Virus record (IMG/VR): IMGVR_UViG_2744054627_000013
Source: a virus
Lineage: Duplodnaviria > Heunggongvirae > Uroviricota > Caudoviricetes
Direction: 5' to 3' (one strand)
Length of the DNA: 7,552 nt
The notes beneath the pieces were generated by a model. The model was not told the DNA's origin, did no database searches, and saw nothing but the letters and a program-made list of their open reading frames with translations. A program made the translations under genes and the position numbers. Below are positions 1 through 6,875 of this stretch, in pieces (position 1 is the stretch's first letter; each line of letters opens with the position of its first letter).

Positions 1-330
1 TGGCATGGAATCGAAATCAGTCGATACCCGCAGTATATATCGTGAACTGGGTGCAACGCTGAGTTACAACATGCGTCTGGGGAACGGTATGGAAATTGAA
101 CCCTGCCTGAAGGCGGCTGTGCGCAAAGAATTTGTCGATGATAACCGGGTGAAAGTGAATAGTGACGGTAATTTCGTCAATGATTTGTCGGGCAGACGTG
201 GAATATACCAGGCAGGTATTAAAGCCTCATTCAGCAGTACGTTAAGCGGGCATCTTGGGGTGGGGTATAGCCATGGTGCCGGTGTGGAATCCCGTGGAAC
301 GGGGTAGCTGGTGTGAACTGGTCGTTCTGA
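1..330 (+). CDS. 3' end of an autotransporter / outer-membrane beta-barrel gene (5'-partial, continues off the left edge); frameshifted about 12 codons before the natural stop as sequenced
   Basis: ORF 5-307 is Gly/Ser/Tyr-rich with alternating beta-strand pattern (...GIYQAGIKASFSSTLSGHLGVGYSHGAGVES). In the given frame it ends ...SRGTG, but shifting -1 at the CCC run at 291-293 gives ...ESPWNGVAGVNWSF-stop (TGA 328-330), a typical terminal-aromatic beta-barrel signature. Family assignment is from memory. Confidence 0.5.
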
Positions 331-342
331 CCATCAACGAAA

Positions 343-366
343 AAGCCCACATCTGTGGGCTTTCAT
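343..366. terminator. Hairpin between the autotransporter gene and the att core, possibly a bidirectional intrinsic terminator
   Basis: Inverted repeat AGCCCACA-TCT-TGTGGGCT (343-361) followed by TTTCAT on the + strand; on the minus strand the same stem is followed by TTTTCGTT. A second perfect palindrome GGAGCCGCGGCTCC lies at 374-387. Confidence 0.45.
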
Positions 367-488
367 GTCACCAGGAGCCGCGGCTCCTTTGCGTATCCTT
401 TTATGTCTCTTCACCGTCTGGTCGGTGTCCTGCTGAGACTGCTAACTTCCTGTTTTTATTGGTGTTGTCCTTATACCGTCCAATCATG

Positions 489-520
489 ATTGGTGGAGCT
501 GGCGGGAGTTGAACCCGTGT
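489..520 (-). other. ssrA: Attachment-site core: partial copy of the 3' end of the tmRNA gene ssrA (T-arm, acceptor strand and CCA); no ssrA body in the window
   Basis: Reverse complement of 489-520 reads GGACaCGGGTTCAACTCCCGCCAGCTCCACCA, matching the remembered E. coli ssrA 3' terminus (GGACGCGGGTTCAACTCCCGCCAGCTCCACCA) with one mismatch. Sequence to the right (521-860) is AT-rich and not tmRNA-like. Confidence 0.7.
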
Positions 521-732
521 CCATAGTTATGTAATTCATTGAATTTAAATAGCCAAATATTGTTGATTTTACAAGCGGCTCTTTTGCGGAACTTTTTCTG
601 TCCTGTTACTGTCTTACTATTTATTTTAAAATAGTTTCATTTGGAATTAATGGTTTGTGGTTGCAGTTTCGGAGATAGATAGCATTTTTTGCTAAAAAAT
701 ATTTTTATAAAAAAATGTGTGTAAAAATGATG

Positions 733-755
733 TTATGCACAGATTTATGCACAGA
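733..755 (+). promoter_or_regulatory. Tandem direct repeat TTATGCACAGA x2 (12-bp period), each with a DnaA-box-like TTATNCACA core, in the cargo-operon upstream region
   Basis: 733-743 and 745-755 are identical 11-mers separated by one T. An imperfect palindrome TTGTCAACAATATTATTGACTC (804-825) lies 50 bp downstream, about 125 bp before the ATG at 949. Confidence 0.3.
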
Positions 756-948
756 GGCTTTGTGATAAACCAGATTGTTTTGGATAAGTTTGTTTTTTGT
801 GATTTGTCAACAATATTATTGACTCTTGTTACTAAAGTGAGTGTTTTCTAAGGTGGTCAGAAGTTGTCCCTTCATGTAATCTTATTAGCCATAAAGAACA
901 AAAAATAATTCAACATCATTACCAACTATTTGTAAGATAAGGTTTTTA

Positions 949-1764
949 ATGTTGCAGCCAGCAAAAAAAGCATCAGTTATTAGCGCGCGGCTAACTAAAT
1001 ACCTCAAAGATGGAGTGAGGATTGATGACTTTAGCTTTAGAAGGATGTTACGTGAGATTGAAGCACTTAGAGATCCTGTCTCTGAGGACTATCTTTTAGC
1101 GTTGGTCTATGGTGCACATGGCCAAGTGAATGAGGCGATAGGCTTCTTTGAGCGTTCCTTGCAGGTATGCCATAATGAGGTTGTTGCAAAGAATTTTCTT
1201 GTTTTCTTGTCAGATTACGGTACGTTGAAGAAAAGCTTTGAAACAAGCATTAAGCTTGCTGAAAGCTTCATATCCCCGTTTATTTATCTTCAAGCTTATG
1301 AAAACTCCCTCTTTATGGGGAAGATGGCGTTGGCGGAGAAGTATTTCCAGTCATACTCTAAATTGTTCGGAGATAAGGAGCCTGAAAAAATGGACAACAA
1401 TTTTGATGAAGTTGTTTCCCAGGTCGAATCCTTTAAGCAACGTGCCGATCTTTCTGGTTTAGAATATGAACTTATTTTCAATAATGTAGCCAATGTCATG
1501 GATTCTCAGAAGGTTCATCTTTCGGGAATGCGTTTTTATAATATTTCGGAAGAGAAAGTGAATGCGATTGTATTCATGACAAAGTCTTCTGATGCTGAAC
1601 AAATCGCTGATATGAATATTGAGCTTGCTTTTTCAATGGCTGAGCACGATTGTTTAGTCGGTAAAGATTTTGCTGTTTGGTTTGAATGTAAAGACACACA
1701 TATTGAGCAGAATGCTATCTCCGAATTAGGTCTGATTACCCGGAGGGTTGCACATGCCGGTTAA
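949..1764 (+). CDS. Hypothetical protein, 271 aa, first gene of the att-int cargo cassette; predicted largely helical, no domain recognised
   Basis: Long ORF with ATG at 949 preceded by AAGG about 6 nt upstream; ends with in-frame tandem stops TAA-TAG (1762-1767); sits in an AT-rich segment with its own upstream region and downstream terminator. Confidence 0.6.
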   Translation: MLQPAKKASVISARLTKYLKDGVRIDDFSFRRMLREIEALRDPVSEDYLLALVYGAHGQVNEAIGFFERSLQVCHNEVVAKNFLVFLSDYGTLKKSFETSIKLAESFISPFIYLQAYENSLFMGKMALAEKYFQSYSKLFGDKEPEKMDNNFDEVVSQVESFKQRADLSGLEYELIFNNVANVMDSQKVHLSGMRFYNISEEKVNAIVFMTKSSDAEQIADMNIELAFSMAEHDCLVGKDFAVWFECKDTHIEQNAISELGLITRRVAHAG

Positions 1765-2136
1765 TAGTCAAGATTTTCTCGGTTTTGCAAAGACTGTCAT
1801 CAACGTAATGACGAAATCGGCTATCGAAATGCTATAGCAAGATCCTACTATGGCGCTTACCATCATGTCTTGCCTTGTATGGTAAACGGGCCGAAAGACA
1901 GTCATCAGGGGCTAATCAATTATTTGCAGGGCGATGCTTCAAGAGGAAGTGAAGTATATGAAGCTAGATATCTAAAAGGGATTAGTTTTATCCTGAGTCA
2001 ACTTAAAGCTCAGAGGATTGTTGCAGACTATCGACTTGATCAATCGGTCACTTCTAAACAGTCTGAAGTTGCGATTCTAACAACTGAGAGGCTCTTTGCT
2101 AAGTGTACGGAAATGCTTAAATCGAGAGCCTCCTAA
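1754..2136 (+). CDS. Hypothetical protein, second gene of the cargo cassette, about 127 aa if one -1 frameshift between about 1768 and 1837 is corrected; contains an R-x6-HH motif (RSYYGAYHH)
   Basis: ATG at 1754 with strong SD GGAGGG 6 nt upstream, overlapping the last codons of the 271-aa gene. That frame stops at 1835-1837, but the frame carrying the annotated 88-aa ORF (1870-2136) is open back to 1768, consistent with a single-base deletion. The fusion is an inference. Confidence 0.45.
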
Positions 2137-2142
2137 TTGATA

Positions 2143-2166
2143 AAGCCACTTAAGTGGCTTTTTTTG
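2143..2166. terminator. Intrinsic terminator ending the cargo operon; the stem also contains the integrase stop codon on the opposite strand
   Basis: Perfect palindrome AAGCCACTTAAGTGGCTT (2143-2160) followed by TTTTTTT on the + strand, directly after the cargo stop codon at 2134-2136. Confidence 0.6.
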
Positions 2167-3318
2167 TGATATTGCTGGTCGTATTACCGTCATATTCCTT
2201 TAAATATGAACCATAATGACGAAATAACATTTCCGGCCCTTTATGCCCCATTTGAGCTGCAAGCCAAAACAGGTTTGCTCCCGGCTGATATGGCGGGTGG
2301 CGAATGTATGCCTAGTTTGATATGGATTTCTGTAACGAATACCTGCTTTTCGCAATGTTGGCACCCATGCTTTTTCCTGATTGCATCAGCACTTGCCCAA
2401 GGCTTATTGGTCTTTGGATCTTCAAAGACAGTAGTATCCTTCATGAATGTAAATGGCTTCTGATTTATCAGCGCAACATTGCCTCTTCTGTCAGTTCAAC
2501 TTTCCGAGTACCTGCTTTTGTCTTTGTCCCTTTGATAACACCGACAACACTTGCGCTCTGGACATGGGCAGTTTTTCCAACAAAGTCGATATCACGCCAT
2601 CGAAGGCACATAATTCAGAACTACGCAGGCCTGTATGTATAGCGAACCGGAACAGATTTTCCCATTGTTTGTTTCCGGCTGCTGCTAGTAATGCATCAAC
2701 TTCTGCTGGTGATAGCGGATCAACTACGTAGCTGCTTTCTGCTTCTGACTTATCACTTTGGTAGCGCGAAGCTGTTACTAACGATACGGGGTTAATTTGA
2801 AGTACCCCATCGGTCACGGCTTCATCAAGTGCTGACCGCAGGAAAGATAACTGGTTGCGAATTGTTTTTAAGGTCGTTTTCTGATTTTGAATCCACGCTT
2901 TCAGGGTTGCTGGTGTTAATTCACTTGCAGGGCAAATGTGAAGTGAGGCTAACGCACTACGGCATTTTTTATAGCCACCAATCGTAGAGGGTGAAAGTTT
3001 TCTTGTTTCGCAGATTTCAAGATATTCGTCCAGGTACATCTTTACCGTTTTGCCTGCAGCAGCATTACCAAAAATTTTCAAACGAGCAGAACGGGGAAAA
3101 TATTCTGCATAAATGAATGTTCCCCTTTCGATCTTATTATGGATTTCGCCGAGTGTACGCTCGGCGTATTTAATGTTCTTTGGTGTTACTTCCAGATTGG
3201 AAAGCGGCTCACGACATCTAACTCCTTTGTAGGTGAAAGTTATATTGATCGTTTCTCCCTGGCGGTGTTTCCTGATTGTTACGCCGCGCGGTAGTTTGAG
3301 CAGTTTTGTCTGGCCCAT
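2150..3318 (-). pseudogene. int: Tyrosine integrase (lambda/P22-type with N-terminal arm-binding domain), about 390 aa when intact; interrupted by about 4 single-base frameshifts in the C-terminal half as sequenced
   Basis: ATG at 3318; N-terminal 275 aa in one frame (MGQTKLLKLPRGVTIRKH...HTGLRSSELCA). Integrase-like sequence continues in shifted frames: WRDIDFVGKTAHVQSASVVGVIKGTKTKAGTRKVELTEEAM, then ...FEDPKTNKPWASADAIRKK, then KAWVPTLRKAGIRYRNPYQTRHTFAT, then LFWLAAQMGHKGPEMLFRHYGSYLKEY... to TAA at 2150-2152. Catalytic R, K, H-x-x-R, H and Y are all present after correction. One shift is at a T5 run (2371-2375). Confidence 0.8.
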
Positions 3319-3485
3319 TTTGCAACCTCACTAAGATCAATCCACCTCTCCTTAACGCCTTCAACCTTTAAAACCTGAACACCTTCACGCCAAACACCGC
3401 GCTGTACACGTTTGTTTATTGCTTCAGGAGTTTCGCCAGTTTCTTTGCAATAAGTTGAGATAGGAACACAATCGAGGTTCAGCAT
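3279..3485 (-). CDS. xis: Excisionase (lambda Xis-like), 68 aa from the SD-supported start
   Basis: Directly upstream of int and overlapping its 5' end by about 40 nt, as in lambda. ATG at 3485 has GGAGAA about 5 nt upstream; product MLNLDCVPISTYCKETGETPEAINKRVQRGVWREGVQVLKVEG... resembles Xis-family winged-helix proteins. Longer N-terminal extensions (starts at 3497 or 3524) lack an SD. Confidence 0.6.
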   Translation of the reverse strand: MLNLDCVPISTYCKETGETPEAINKRVQRGVWREGVQVLKVEGVKERWIDLSEVAKWARQNCSNYRAA

Positions 3486-3526
3486 ACGTTTCTCCATTAT
3501 CCCGTCTGCACACGGGAGCAACATTA

Positions 3527-4393
3527 TTAACGAATAGTGTCGTTACTTTGAAGTACAGCAAATGCCATTAATACTTCTAAAGTATATCTTCTATAAAATT
3601 TAACAAAACCAACATAGAAAACATAGACGAAGAAAAAGCTAAGCATTATTGAAAGTAAACTATAAAGATAATCACTATGAGTACATAATCGATAAATAAA
3701 GGTTGGAACTGATACCCAAAATGAAATTATAAAGATTAAACATATGTTTCTGCAAAAACCATATAATGCAACATAGTTTTGAATTTTTGTTTGATGTTGT
3801 TTTGAAAACTCATAAACATAATGATATGCCAATCTGAAGAGATCATCATCAAGTCCGTTTTTATCTTGTAATAATTGGCGATTTGTTATGAACTTTTTCT
3901 CATAACCTTCTTTGATCATTAACCATGTTGTATTAGCTAAATGAAATGGTAGAGATTGAGAATAACATAGTTTTTGTGTTATAAAATCCCATAGTATTAT
4001 TGGACATAATACGCATTTGATTATGCGATTCTTTATTTTTGTTTTTTTATCAGCGCTTCTCTCATCGCATGATGGGCTACAAATGCTTTCTGAGGTATCT
4101 ATCAATTTTTTAAATAGATATTTGGAAGGATATCCTAATTCTTTATTCATGTATTTTTCGATAAAAAATGCTGACGTGATAGAAATAAAATGTCCAGCTA
4201 TATAAGATATAATAACTATTGAAGCGTAGTTCAAAATGCCAAAGATTTGACTTTGACCTCTGAGCAATTCACTTAAGTCAATAACAATATCTAGATCGAA
4301 TGTCAAACCACAGAAATACATTAATAGGATAAAAAAACCACCTGGTATTAAATATCCAAGAAAGTCATAGAATGAGAATGGATTTTGATTCAT
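3527..4393 (-). CDS. Hypothetical integral membrane protein, about 288 aa with about 5 predicted transmembrane helices, in a strongly AT-rich moron
   Basis: Long minus-strand ORF; ATG at 4393 preceded by GGAGA about 6 nt upstream (the TTG at 4417 in the ORF track is a less likely start). Hydrophobic stretches such as FFILLMYFCGLTF, IFGILNYASIVIISYIAGHFISITSAFFI, LIFIISFWVSVPTFIY and LLSIMLSFFFVYVFYVGFV. Composition is much more AT-rich than the flanking genes. Confidence 0.6.
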   Translation of the reverse strand: MNQNPFSFYDFLGYLIPGGFFILLMYFCGLTFDLDIVIDLSELLRGQSQIFGILNYASIVIISYIAGHFISITSAFFIEKYMNKELGYPSKYLFKKLIDTSESICSPSCDERSADKKTKIKNRIIKCVLCPIILWDFITQKLCYSQSLPFHLANTTWLMIKEGYEKKFITNRQLLQDKNGLDDDLFRLAYHYVYEFSKQHQTKIQNYVALYGFCRNICLIFIISFWVSVPTFIYRLCTHSDYLYSLLSIMLSFFFVYVFYVGFVKFYRRYTLEVLMAFAVLQSNDTIR

Positions 4394-4501
4394 TGTTGCT
4401 CTCCAATAATTTTTCAATTTGTAATATAACCTATATCTATATGTTAATAAATTACTTATATGTTCTTTTATGGCAGAGTTTGAATTCGTACGTGCTGATT
4501 T

Positions 4502-5024
4502 TTACGACTCAGTTAACTCTTTAAAGCGTTCCATAAACATCCCATAGGTATGGCCTGGCGACAGTGGAATAACTTTGAACATCTCTGTTGCCGGGATACC
4601 TTCCAGTACGGGCCAGAAAGAGCCATCATCAAGCCCGAGATCGCGGCGTTCGGTTGCCAGCATGATGAGATCGGCATATTTCACGGGCGTACTCATAACC
4701 GGGGTAACCCGTATTTCTCACGGATTACGGCGTCTATTTTTCTTCCATCCGTTTATAGTCAGGAAGAAGGCGTTTCAGTGGAGCCGGGATGTCCTGGCAA
4801 TACGCTTCTGTTGCATCATGCATTAACGCTTCAAAAGCAAATTCCTGCGGTACCAGCTGGCTGCAAAGCACCGCATGTTGGGCGACGCTGTAGAAGTGTG
4901 AAAGATGGCCGGCAAAGCGACAGATATTTGAAAGGGAAACCGCGATATCGTTAATATCGATGTTGTCTTTATTTATCCTGTCATAATAAAAATGTTTCCC
5001 GGAAAAAGTTTTAATAAATGACAT
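4502..5024 (-). pseudogene. yfdR: HD-domain phosphohydrolase, YfdR-like (5'-deoxynucleotidase family); split by two single-base homopolymer deletions as sequenced
   Basis: N-terminal part (ORF ending 4734) carries the HD signature region (...RFAGHLSHFYSVAQHAVLCSQLV...HDATEAY...) and ends ...KRMEEK-stop at a T5 run (4737-4741). The C-terminal part (4696-4502, MSTPVKYADLIMLATERRDLGLDDGSFWP...) is in another frame, restored after a G4 run at 4701-4704. ATG at 5024 has GGAG 6 nt upstream; a GTG at 5036 is an alternative start. Gene name is from memory of the CPS-53 yfdPQR module. Confidence 0.65.
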
Positions 5025-5157
5025 TTTGTTCTCCACTGTTTTATATGCGCTGCACCGCGCTGAATTTTGGTTAAAGAAAACCCTCCTCGCCTTCAGGCAT
5101 TATTGAGTCAATTACGTTTCCATAAATGCCCCCGCAGGGGCATTTGCAGTAATGAAA

Positions 5158-5982
5158 TCAGGCGGTGAAAGTCCCAATAAAGGTTTCTACTTTGCTGTCC
5201 TTGAATTTCTCAACAAGCAGATCACGAAATTCGTTAGCCATATCTTCCTGCACCGCTTCCAGCTGAATAATGCGCAGAACCAGTACAGGACGATCGCCAG
5301 TGATAATGCTGAGGCGTAATTTAAACGGACGTTCTTTCAGACCTTCAAACGGAACGCATTTAAACTCAAATGCCACTGGCATAATGTCTTTGGTCTTCGC
5401 TTCGACAGACTCCATCAGGGAGCGTTTGCCGCTGAAGTCATTATCTTCAAAATCAGCAGTCTGGTTTGCTTCAATCGTGATTTTACGGACCGCCGCAGCC
5501 GCTTTTGTTGCCTGAATGGTGTCACCATTAGCATCAAAGCCCACAAGGTAGTCGGCCCAGTCTTCGATCCATTCTGCCAGTGACTTCTGGGAGTTACGCT
5601 CGCCGTTAACAGACAACAGAGCAGAGAACGGTGCTGTCTTTTTCAGTTTGAGAGTGGCAGTGTTATCTGCGTGACCTGGCTCATCAATAGTACCCAGGTT
5701 AAGCACACTGACGGCACGCATATTATCGGCATCGATAAAGCAGCGGGTGCCTTCATCTGCAAGATCTTTAGAATAACGGGTAAAATCATCGATGCTGGCA
5801 GTGGAAAGTGCACCACGGAAACGGAAGCGATTTAAATTAAATTTTTCCAGATCATGAATGCGGAAATTCTCAGGCAATGCCACAGCATCGGCACCAATCT
5901 TACTGATAATTTCATTAACACCCTGAGCAGAAATAAGGGCATGGATTTGATTAATTGCGGTTGCGTCTAAGTTCTGAGACAT
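5158..5982 (-). CDS. yfdQ: YfdQ-like phage early protein (DUF2303-type), 274 aa
   Basis: Intact ORF with ATG at 5982 and GAGGA about 6 nt upstream; size and position directly upstream of the yfdR-like gene match the CPS-53 yfdQ-yfdR arrangement as remembered. Confidence 0.7.
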
Positions 5983-6047
5983 AATAAGTCCTCACTATAT
6001 AAAGATATTCAGTGATGAGATAAATAATCAGTTTATTACGAACGATA

Positions 6048-6410
6048 TTAACGACCTGCTGCGCGGAGTTTTCCGTCAGGTTCACCGGCAAGAGTCAGTA
6101 ATTGTCCCTGGTCTTCCTGCAGAATAGTCAGGCGACCACCGCGATTGACATACATCGGCGTTTCGGTGGTGTCTTCTTCGGAAATTTTCCCGCGGTTAGT
6201 TGGGCGAACATATGAGAGTTTGTGTTTGATTTTCACACGGTTCTCATCAAACGGTTCGATTTCCAGGTTGAGCGAGACCTTACCTTTGGTTTTCGTGTTC
6301 ATCACACCGGAAGCGACTTCACTGAGAACTGCGCCGATTTTGGTTTCAAATACGCCGCCGTCCAGCTCCCCGATAAATGCCTGCACATCAGTACTGCGTT
6401 CGCTAGCCAT
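6048..6410 (-). CDS. Phage early protein, 120 aa, possibly YfdP-like by size and synteny; first gene of the minus-strand early module in this window
   Basis: ATG at 6410 with GAGGAG about 7 nt upstream (MASERSTDVQAFIGELDGGVFETKIG...). The ORF track's longer 174-aa version starts in G+C-rich sequence without an RBS and has an Arg/Pro/His-rich, non-protein-like N-terminus. Confidence 0.65.
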   Translation of the reverse strand: MASERSTDVQAFIGELDGGVFETKIGAVLSEVASGVMNTKTKGKVSLNLEIEPFDENRVKIKHKLSYVRPTNRGKISEEDTTETPMYVNRGGRLTILQEDQGQLLTLAGEPDGKLRAAGR

Positions 6411-6875
6411 TTTGCTGCTCCTCATCATATCGACCCTGCAAGGTCGGTTAGTTTCTCCACAAAACAGAGAAGAACACCTGCGGTGACTGCCGCCCGGATG
6501 GATTGGGTTATGAGCCGTCGTCCGGTGATGCTCTTCTCTGTTTTGTAAAAGGACGGTACCAGCCGGAAGCAAGGGTACAAGCTGGTACCGCCAGGACTAC
6601 ACACAGCATAAAGTTGTGGTGCCGGGTGCCTCCCGGTGCCTGGCGAAGGTTGCACACCAGGCGGGTGGGTATCCACAGAAGGTCGACTGTCAGCCTCAAC
6701 CTTAACCCGCGTGCGCTGAGCCGCATTCACCACAACGCTAAGGATTCTCTCTGGTTGAAAATACTTAGCTGTTATGTGCCTGCTTTTAGCCACATCAGGC
6801 GAGGTGGACCTGGTTATTCCCCAACAACAAGGATTCGGTTAATCTGGTTATCCCCAACAACGCAAAAGGAAAGAA
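6411..6875. other. G+C-rich, hairpin-dense non-coding block between divergent genes; candidate structured RNA or complex regulatory region
   Basis: No ORF with a credible start or protein-like composition. 13-bp inverted repeat AAAACAGAGAAGA (6461-6473) / TCTTCTCTGTTTT (6532-6544) encloses 58 nt; 12-bp stem GACGGTACCAGC (6552-6563) / GCTGGTACCGCC (6581-6592) with one mismatch; further CCGGG/CCCGG hairpin at 6622-6636. Confidence 0.35.
6810..6861 (+). promoter_or_regulatory. Two direct repeats CTGGTTAT(T)CCCCAACAAC spaced 34 bp apart, immediately upstream of the + strand small gene; candidate operator or iteron sites
   Basis: Copies at 6810-6828 and 6844-6861, with a related CTGGTT at 6751-6756; the second copy ends 15 bp before the ATG at 6876. 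Confidence 0.35.

What the first reader, a model, noticed from the sequence alone, without database searches (positions are those of the whole stretch)
489..520. Partial ssrA 3' end marks the prophage boundary; integrase sits at the ssrA-distal end with cargo between att and int
Only the last roughly 32 nt of the tmRNA gene are present, in minus orientation and with one mismatch in the T-stem (GGACa versus GGACG), so this is the displaced or duplicated att core rather than the functional gene. The intact ssrA, if present, should lie further right beyond the window. The int gene is transcribed toward this partial copy. A tandem array of elements at ssrA is another possibility.
Basis: partly seen in the sequence, partly recalled or inferred. 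Interest (0 to 1): 0.45.

Follow-up and report, generated by a model that had tools for sequence, protein, structure and literature searches.

The report
Prophage end at the tmRNA gene
The 32-base piece of the tmRNA gene is real and marks the far end of a lambda-like prophage inserted into E. coli's ssrA gene, an arrangement already catalogued for strain CFT073 and phage LLS, so it is ordinary.

Summary
Confirmed and already known. Window 1-517 is identical to an unoccupied ypjA-ssrA locus. Base 518 differs, and from 523 the sequence is prophage.

No third copy exists, so this is not a tandem array here, although tandem arrays occur in other strains.

The repeat is 183 bp, not 32. The phage also carries a copy of the 151-nt ssrA trailer and its terminator. 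The mismatch is the phage's own base at the inner edge of the att homology. It is not decay. Crossover is confined to window 478-517, which holds the T-loop.

The integrase, excisionase and att geometry match free phage LLS (Int 87% identical) and the CFT073 element Ecoc48X. The slot between att and int holds variable cargo; here it is a TPR-like protein plus a HEPN protein.

In the window int carries four single-base deletions. These are probably sequencing errors.

Side lead: a 40-nt module lies on both att arms and differs between phage lineages. It is a candidate integrase arm-binding site.

The parts
1..330 (+). 3' end of the ypjA/ehaD autotransporter gene (beta-barrel C-terminus). This is native chromosomal flank and not part of the prophage. 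The reading frame is broken at about 290 by a 1-nt deletion relative to E14.
   Evidence: E14 annotation; identical to the empty-site strain FXCREC004; indel list.
340..490 (-). Native 151-nt 3' trailer of ssrA, ending in its rho-independent terminator hairpin (342-363). This is the chromosomal copy of a segment that the phage also carries on its other att arm, so the prophage is flanked by 183-bp direct repeats (340-522).
   Evidence: BLAST of the window against the E14 ssrA junction: 175/184 identical. Alignment A1. Hairpin I7. About 4,140 E. coli genomes carry it, mostly once and next to intact ssrA.
491..522 (-). Displaced 3'-terminal 32 nt of ssrA (T-stem, T-loop, acceptor 3' strand, CCA) with one mismatch at 518. 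This is the ssrA-distal att junction. The acceptor end CGCCAGCTCCACCA is undamaged.
   Evidence: The same variant 32-mer heads related prophages in UMNK88, O157:H7 493/89, CP55, 1500 and CFT073.
478..517 (.). Interval to which the integrative crossover is confined. It is the 40-bp block identical in attB, the left junction and the right junction. It contains the T-loop (507-513, AGTTGAA) flanked by the inverted T-stem arms CGGG/CCCG.
   Evidence: Alignment A1. The last phage/host difference on the trailer side is at 477 and the first on the inner side is at 518. That the crossover is in the T-loop itself is inference.
523..948 (.). Phage P' arm: an AT-rich (29-33% GC) non-coding stretch upstream of the cargo operon.
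   Evidence: Divergence from ssrA after 522; composition; 98-100% conserved in 44 E. coli genomes.
380..419 (+). Copy 1 (trailer / P-arm side) of a 40-nt module, GCGGCTCYTTTGCG-N-TGTCY-N-YGTCT. Candidate integrase arm-type or accessory-protein site.
   Evidence: Direct repeat D1; E about 9e-5; the 14-mer occurs exactly twice in the window and 0/200 shuffles give two; same positions and lineage-specific sequence in UMNK88.
575..614 (+). Copy 2 (P' arm) of the 40-nt module, 30/40 identical to copy 1.
949..1764 (+). Cargo gene 1: a 271-aa all-helical TPR-like repeat protein with a small C-terminal alpha/beta domain. Function unknown.
   Evidence: phrog_17809. Only 10 homologue clusters; the two that carry an organism name are enterobacterial (E. 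coli, Citrobacter sedlakii). AlphaFold2 model pLDDT 86.8. Only generic TPR fold matches, E >= 0.015.
1754..2136 (+). Cargo gene 2: a 127-aa HEPN (UPF0332-like) protein that overlaps gene 1 by 11 nt. It is frameshifted at about 1788 in the window.
   Evidence: phrog_5176; 9 of 20 family members hit Pfam HEPN PF05168; profile hits PDB HEPN proteins 9xbd and 9xbc; invariant residues; indel.
2142..2161 (.). Terminator-like hairpin between the convergent 3' ends of the cargo operon and int.
2150..3318 (-). int: tyrosine integrase (390 aa in E14) with an N-terminal arm-DNA-binding domain, transcribed toward the att fragment. In the window it is interrupted by four 1-nt deletions (about 2279, 2370, 2473, 2604).
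   Evidence: Pfam PF12167 + PF13102 + PF00589 on the E14 copy; 87% identical to phage LLS Int; 67-98% identical to the integrases of related ssrA prophages; indels.
3279..3485 (-). xis: excisionase (68 aa), overlapping the start of int.
   Evidence: phrog_2917 excisionase, E = 7.7e-44.

Best explanation

The free phage's attP carries a copy of the last 32 nt of ssrA, the 151-nt ssrA trailer and its terminator. Recombination with the chromosome inside the shared 40-bp block (window 478-517, most likely in the T-loop) splits ssrA. The gene body is rejoined to the phage-borne 3' end, trailer and terminator, so tmRNA stays wild type. The original chromosomal 3' end, still attached to its native trailer and ypjA, is displaced about 41 kb away. 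There it abuts the phage P' arm, a cargo operon, int and xis.

The single mismatch at 518 is the phage's allele just inside the crossover block. Because attP lies downstream of int in the same orientation as the ssrA fragment, int always ends up at the ssrA-distal end, transcribed toward the fragment. The interval between attP and int is an accessory-gene slot that differs between related phages.

Shown here: the fragment, the junction position, the empty site, the second repeat at intact ssrA in near-identical genomes, the integrase and excisionase identities, and the same layout in a free phage.

Inferred: the exact crossover point, activity of this particular copy, and the function of the cargo.
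For: - The 31/32 match is unique in the window and absent from 200 shuffles.
- The window is 99.5% identical to E. coli E14. In E14 the intact ssrA lies on the minus strand 41,176 bp to the right, with a complete prophage between (int, xis, regulatory, lysis, head, tail and tail-fibre genes). There are only two copies of the 32-mer in that interval, even allowing 6 mismatches.
- The two ends share a 183/184-bp direct repeat, 95% identical.
- The empty site in strain FXCREC004 has ypjA directly followed by ssrA. It is identical to the window up to base 517.
- Free phage LLS carries an annotated 'tmRNA pseudogene / attP' with the trailer homologue, then one cargo gene, int, xis, and yfdR/Q/P-like genes in the same order and orientation. 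Its Int is 87% identical. Its authors infer integration into the ssrA 3' end (PMC12315714).
- The CFT073 prophage is 97.9% identical over window 340-6847 and spans about 48.4 kb from ssrA. This fits 'Ecoc48X', listed with an undamaged CGCCAGCTCCACCA fragment in Table 1 of PMC10107115, citing Williams 2003.
- Int has arm-binding, SAM-like and catalytic domains. Xis matches phrog_2917.
- The same variant 32-mer and a 67-98% identical Int head prophages with different or no cargo in UMNK88, O157:H7 493/89 and CP55.
Against: - The window itself does not reach the intact ssrA, so the second copy is inferred from relatives.
- In the window int has four frameshifting 1-nt deletions, and the HEPN cargo gene, yfdR and ypjA also carry frameshifting 1-nt deletions. 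If these are real, this copy cannot excise by itself.
- No experimental excision or integration data exist for this element. LLS integration at ssrA is itself a sequence-based inference.
Confidence: 0.9

Rival explanations
1. The fragment is an internal boundary of a tandem array: another ssrA-targeting island lies to its left and the fragment separates two elements.
For: Such arrays exist. In strains 1500, O157:H7 493/89 and CP55 a P4-type integrase gene and a small island lie immediately left of the same 32-mer. In those genomes the match to the window begins at 491.
Against: In the window the left flank (1-490) is the native ssrA trailer and ypjA, identical to an unoccupied locus. E14 has only two copies of the 32-mer between ypjA and smpB.
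Confidence: 0.03
2. The element in this genome is a decaying, immobile remnant: int and several other genes are truly frameshifted, and the fragment is a fossil boundary.
For: Relative to E14 the window has 17 single-base deletions. Four are in int and others are in the HEPN cargo gene, yfdR and ypjA. No full-length int ORF exists in the window.
Against: All 17 are 1-nt deletions, with no 1-nt insertions. Almost all fall in short runs of one base, and they occur in coding and non-coding DNA alike. This is the usual signature of read or assembly error. The same element has an intact 390-aa int in E14, 1500 and CFT073. The att repeat region 340-522 is 100% identical to E14.
Confidence: 0.12
3. 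The repeat arose by homologous recombination or a local duplication of the ssrA 3' region, not by integrase-mediated site-specific integration.
For: The repeat is long (183 bp, 95% identical), enough for RecA-dependent exchange.
Against: A free phage carries the same segment next to a cognate int-xis module. The junction falls at the T-stem edge, as in other tRNA and tmRNA integrations. The pattern of phage and host alleles switches once, inside a 40-bp block that holds the T-loop. Prophages with quite different trailers (UMNK88, about 60% identical) use the same core.
Confidence: 0.03

Closest known systems
[quoted passage not shown]
   Same: 97.9% nucleotide identity over window 340-6847. 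Same fragment, P' arm, cargo pair, int, xis and yfdR/Q/P genes. About 48.4 kb between ssrA and the fragment. The displaced fragment keeps an undamaged CGCCAGCTCCACCA end.
   Different: CFT073 lacks ypjA next to the trailer; its match starts at 340 and glaH is nearby. The late regions of the CFT073 and E14 prophages differ. I could not read Williams 2003 itself. The equation with Ecoc48X rests on the strain, the site and the 48-kb size.
Escherichia phage LLS (PQ299149; Genome Res 2025, PMC12315714)
   Same: Int is 87% identical. The attP is annotated as a tmRNA pseudogene with the trailer homologue. The order is attP, cargo, int, xis, then yfdR/Q/P-like early-left genes. Orientation is the same.
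   Different: Its cargo gene is unrelated. Its inner core variant is GCGCCC where the window has GTGTCC. Its P' arm is short and different. Its virion module is lambda-like, whereas E14 has an HK97-type head with a contractile Mu-like tail. The authors report a 29-bp identity and do not mention the 150-nt trailer homology.
CP4-57 of E. coli K-12 and other P4-type integrase islands at ssrA
   Same: Same target gene. They also leave a displaced ssrA 3' fragment next to the same ypjA-side trailer (K-12-type genomes match window 340-513).
   Different: The P4-type IntA is unrelated (17% identity to LLS Int according to PMC12315714). Its int lies next to the intact ssrA, not at the distal end. Its displaced fragment lacks T357, so excision inactivates tmRNA (PMC10107115). 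The fragment here is undamaged in that region.
Phage lambda Int/Xis/attP paradigm (heterobivalent integrase with arm-type sites)
   Same: int is transcribed toward attP, xis overlaps the int start, and Int has an N-terminal arm-binding domain. Repeated modules lie about 120 nt on one side and about 70 nt on the other side of the core.
   Different: The target is an RNA gene whose 3' end the phage must replace. One att arm is homologous to the host flank. Cargo genes sit between attP and int. The arm sites are only candidates.

Membership tests
Integrative element in a tRNA/tmRNA gene (Islander signature, PMC4383910) | A 3' fragment of the target gene displaced downstream of the intact gene, in the same orientation | tested here: met
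   In E14 the fragment and the intact ssrA are both on the minus strand, and the fragment is 41,176 bp downstream in the ssrA sense. In the window itself only the fragment is visible.
Integrative element in a tRNA/tmRNA gene (Islander signature, PMC4383910) | A tyrosine integrase gene inside the interval | tested here: met
   PF00589, PF12167 and PF13102 on the E14 copy. The window copy is broken by four 1-nt deletions.
Integrative element in a tRNA/tmRNA gene (Islander signature, PMC4383910) | The target gene is regenerated intact by element DNA, and an unoccupied site exists in other strains | tested here: met
   The E14 ssrA 3' 32-mer is wild type. The empty site in FXCREC004 is identical to the window up to base 517.
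Ecoc48X / LLS-type ssrA-specific integrase module | Integrase closely related to that of an element shown or inferred to use ssrA, with the same core sequence | tested here: met
   87% identity to LLS Int; 98% to CFT073 Int; shared core TGGTGGAGCTGGCGGGAGTTGAACCCG.
Ecoc48X / LLS-type ssrA-specific integrase module | Demonstrated integration and excision at ssrA | not testable with these tools
   No experimental data were found. The LLS site is a sequence inference.
Lambda-type heterobivalent Int system | N-terminal arm-DNA-binding domain and an adjacent excisionase | tested here: met
   PF12167, E = 9e-24; phrog_2917 excisionase.
Lambda-type heterobivalent Int system | Arm-type Int binding sites on both sides of the core | tested here: inconclusive
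   A 40-nt module sits at about -111 and +86 from the ssrA end, with lineage-specific sequence shared by both arms in the E14 type and in UMNK88. In LLS the two arms match less well. No binding data exist.
Tandem array of ssrA islands | Each member has its own integrase and its own fragment, and a second element abuts the fragment | tested here: not met
   The left flank is native trailer plus ypjA, and E14 has two copies only. The feature is met in strains 1500, O157:H7 493/89 and CP55.
HEPN-MNT toxin-antitoxin pair (considered for the cargo) | HEPN-domain protein | tested here: met
   9 of 20 homologues hit PF05168. The profile hits PDB HEPN proteins at E = 1.5e-5. The window/E14 copy itself is below Pfam threshold.
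HEPN-MNT toxin-antitoxin pair (considered for the cargo) | Adjacent minimal nucleotidyltransferase partner | tested here: not met
   The partner is a 271-aa TPR-like repeat protein with no nucleotidyltransferase match by Pfam, NCBIfam, PADLOC or fold search.

The most novel reading that the evidence does not exclude
The 151-nt 'native' trailer of ssrA may double as one arm of the phage attachment site. It is homologous to the phage P arm. It carries the same 40-nt module that the phage has on its P' arm. That module changes in concert on both arms between phage lineages. The trailer is also conserved from Escherichia to Photorhabdus.

If the module is an integrase arm site, then the chromosomal target already contains arm-type sites and the ssrA-distal junction seen in the window is almost a complete attP. 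That could change how directionality of integration and excision is controlled. It could also mean that the enterobacterial ssrA trailer has been shaped by, or derived from, ssrA-targeting phages.
Probability: 0.2. Interest if true: 0.5.

Novelty: already known. Interest (0 to 1): 0.15.

Why it matters
The result places a prophage boundary to the base and shows that the tmRNA gene stays intact in the lysogen. This contrasts with CP4-57-type islands, whose excision damages ssrA. It is useful for annotation but adds no new biology.

The modestly interesting residue has three parts:
- The phage mimics the whole ssrA trailer and terminator, not only the 3' 32 nt.
- Candidate arm sites are also present in the host flank.
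- The att-int interval is a variable accessory-gene slot, here holding an uncharacterised TPR-like plus HEPN pair.

Tried and rejected
- ARAGORN on the window found no tmRNA or tRNA gene, as expected for a 32-nt fragment.
- The Rfam hit suggested the match might extend to 538. Alignment with intact ssrA shows it ends at 522.
- I looked for a decayed second ssrA fragment or a longer trailer relic in the P' arm. Only the 40-nt module is significant.
- The equal length (816 nt) of the window cargo gene and LLS gene 31 suggested homology. The proteins are unrelated.
- PADLOC, NCBIfam and Pfam gave nothing for the 271-aa cargo protein beyond a sub-threshold TPR hit. Foldseek against the PDB gave only generic TPR matches.
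- RNAalifold on the trailer alignment gave an uninformative consensus. A hand-drawn three-hairpin structure did better, but the sample was selected by a sequence pattern, so the result is only suggestive.
- Williams 2003 could not be read. Its content is cited second-hand from PMC10107115.
- Polyubiquitin hits to the HEPN profile are short-stretch artefacts with no stretch passing on its own.

Full report
**Observation**

The last 32 nt of E. coli tmRNA occur once in the window, at 491-522 on the minus strand. There is one mismatch (GGACaCGGG, window 518). None of 200 shuffles gave a match even with 3 mismatches allowed. ARAGORN finds no gene. Rfam gives only a sub-threshold 3'-end hit.

**Where the window comes from**

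The window is 99.5% identical over its full length to four chicken E. coli strains (E14 and relatives) and 97.9% identical over 340-6847 to CFT073.

In E14 the gene order is:
- ileY, ypjCB, ypjA;
- the fragment;
- two hypothetical genes on the + strand;
- int, xis, a membrane protein, yfdR, yfdQ and yfdP on the minus strand;
- a lambdoid regulatory region, lysis genes, an HK97-type head and a contractile Mu-like tail, tail fibres, and an invertase fragment;
- a large SMC/LmuB-like ATPase and a fragment of an SOS-response peptidase gene;
- intact ssrA on the minus strand, then smpB.

The 32-mer of intact ssrA lies 41,176 bp to the right of the fragment. No third copy exists between them, even allowing 6 mismatches.

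**The boundary**

Strain FXCREC004 has an unoccupied site in which ypjA is followed directly by ssrA. Alignment of this attB with the window and with the E14 ssrA-side junction shows three things:
- The window is identical to attB from ypjA up to base 517. It has T where ssrA has C at 518, and it diverges completely after 522.
- The ssrA-side junction is phage DNA up to a point 151 nt downstream of ssrA. It then runs parallel to the native trailer with nine differences, and it is identical to attB from window-equivalent 478 onward.
- The flanking repeat is therefore 183/184 bp and 95% identical. It comprises the ssrA 3' 32 nt, the 151-nt trailer and the terminator hairpin (342-363).

The allele pattern switches once, inside the 40-bp block 478-517. 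This block contains the T-loop AGTTGAA flanked by the inverted T-stem arms. All related prophages carry it. It is not decay. tmRNA stays wild type in the lysogen because the sequence from the crossover to CCA is identical in phage and host. That the crossover lies in the T-loop itself is inference.

**The free phage**

Escherichia phage LLS carries the same arrangement in a virion genome. After the tail fibres, invertase and several small genes come the trailer homologue and an annotated 'tmRNA pseudogene / attP'. Then follow one cargo gene, int, xis, an exonuclease, and yfdR/Q/P-like genes, all in the orientation seen in the window. LLS Int is 87% identical to the E14 Int. Its authors infer integration into the ssrA 3' end without loss of function (PMC12315714).

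The CFT073 prophage spans about 48.4 kb from ssrA to the fragment. This fits 'Ecoc48X', listed in Table 1 of PMC10107115 (citing Williams 2003) as an ssrA prophage whose excision does not alter ssrA. The element type is therefore already catalogued.

**Why int is at the distal end**

In attP the ssrA-like segment has the same polarity as int and lies downstream of it. Integration therefore places the int side next to the displaced fragment. UMNK88 shows the basic layout, with int starting 127 nt from the fragment. Other relatives hold different genes in that interval:
- a DUF4760 protein in O157:H7 493/89;
- two small genes in CP55;
- gene 31 in LLS, unrelated to the cargo here.

The integrases of these elements are 67-98% identical. 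The interval is thus a variable accessory-gene slot.

In the window the slot is AT-rich (29-42% GC) and ends at a hairpin shared with the 3' end of int. It encodes two proteins:
- A 271-aa protein predicted with confidence (pLDDT 86.8) to be a TPR-like helical repeat with a small C-terminal domain. It has no specific structural or family match.
- An overlapping 127-aa HEPN/UPF0332-like protein.

A toxin-antitoxin or exclusion role is a reasonable guess. It is not a HEPN-MNT pair, because the partner is not a nucleotidyltransferase.

**State of this copy**

Relative to E14 the window has 17 single-base deletions and no single-base insertions. Nearly all lie in short runs of one base, in coding and non-coding DNA alike. 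Four fall in int, and others fall in the HEPN cargo gene, yfdR and ypjA. This looks like sequencing or assembly error. It cannot be settled from the window.

**Tandem arrays**

In strains 1500, O157:H7 493/89 and CP55 a P4-type integrase island sits immediately left of the same 32-mer. The window has the native flank instead.

**Side lead: the trailer and a repeated module**

A 40-nt segment of the trailer (380-419) recurs at 575-614 in the P' arm, 30/40 identical. Its 14-mer core occurs exactly twice in the window, and none of 200 shuffles gave two matches.

In UMNK88 the phage-borne trailer is only about 60% identical to the E. coli one. Its Int is 68% identical. A different roughly 20-nt sequence occupies the same positions on both arms (about -111 and +86 from the ssrA end). 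In both arms it is followed by two GTCY elements at the same spacing. P' arms of four further elements fit the same plan.

Position, repetition on both arms and concerted lineage-specific change are what arm-type or accessory sites of a heterobivalent integrase would show. In LLS the two arms agree less well, and no binding data exist.

The native chromosomal trailer carries the P-arm copy, so the junction in the window resembles a whole attP.

A pattern scan of one genome per species found the ssrA end plus this motif at exactly the same 97-nt spacing in 20 genomes. These include ten Photorhabdus species, Klebsiella, Leclercia, Trabulsiella, Mangrovibacter, E. ruysiae and E. whittamii. The match lies mostly next to intact ssrA. 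The trailers align throughout and roughly follow taxonomy. A hairpin at +14 to +30 and the terminator show compensatory changes. That sample was selected by the pattern itself.

Two explanations remain open. The trailer may be a functional pre-tmRNA element that phages copy, or it may be a phage arm that hosts have inherited.

**Verdict**

The phenomenon is a known kind of element at a known site.

Noticed in passing
window, whole length (e.g. 290, 792, 1788, 2279, 2370, 2473, 2604, 4700, 4736, 5098, 6514, 6546, 6869, 7073, 7522, 7536): Relative to E14 there are 17 single-base deletions and no single-base insertions, nearly all in short runs of one base. They break ypjA, the HEPN gene, int and yfdR. 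This pattern is typical of read or assembly error.
   Followed up: partly
window 340-490; loci L013-L032: The 151-nt ssrA trailer is conserved at the same length from Escherichia to Photorhabdus, Klebsiella, Leclercia and Mangrovibacter. A hairpin at +14 to +30 from the ssrA end and the terminator show compensatory changes. No Rfam family covers it.
   Followed up: partly
window 380-419 and 575-614; L010, L012, L004, L009, L011: A 40-nt composite module lies on both att arms at fixed distances from the core. Its sequence is lineage-specific and changes in concert on both arms (E14 type against UMNK88). It is a candidate integrase arm or accessory site, and the host's own flank carries one copy.
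   Followed up: partly
window 949-2136 (+): The cargo operon encodes a 271-aa TPR-like repeat protein and an overlapping 127-aa HEPN/UPF0332-like protein. The first has few homologues; the two with an organism name are enterobacterial. The pair matches no known defence system in PADLOC.
   Followed up: partly
window 3527-4393 (-): A very AT-rich (27-31% GC) gene between xis and yfdR encodes a 288-aa predicted membrane protein. It matches phrog_12528 and gives a weak hit to Csx27-type membrane proteins. It may be a second accessory or exclusion gene.
   Followed up: no
window 6544-6766 (-): Sub-threshold full-length match to the Rfam sRNA family STnc100 (39.4 bits against a gathering score of 47, E = 5.5e-6). 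It lies between yfdP and the ECs1072-family gene, where E14 annotates a frameshifted hypothetical CDS.
   Followed up: no
L002 1469-4504 (E14, ssrA-proximal end of the prophage): The other att arm also carries cargo. There is an 870-aa SMC/LmuB-like AAA ATPase (PADLOC LmuB E = 9e-27) and a fragment of an SOS-response-associated peptidase gene, both directly next to the phage-borne ssrA trailer.
   Followed up: no
L006 7606-8835; L009 3606-4835; L011 3554-4795: In strains 1500, O157:H7 493/89 and CP55 a P4-type integrase island abuts the same displaced 32-mer. These are tandem arrays at ssrA.
   Followed up: partly
L004 about 5010-5035 compared with window 342-363: The terminator hairpin in the phage LLS trailer copy differs from the host's by compensatory changes (GCCCGC...GCGGGC against GCCCAC...GTGGGC). 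UMNK88 has a different hairpin at the same place. This suggests the phage-borne terminator is under selection.
   Followed up: partly
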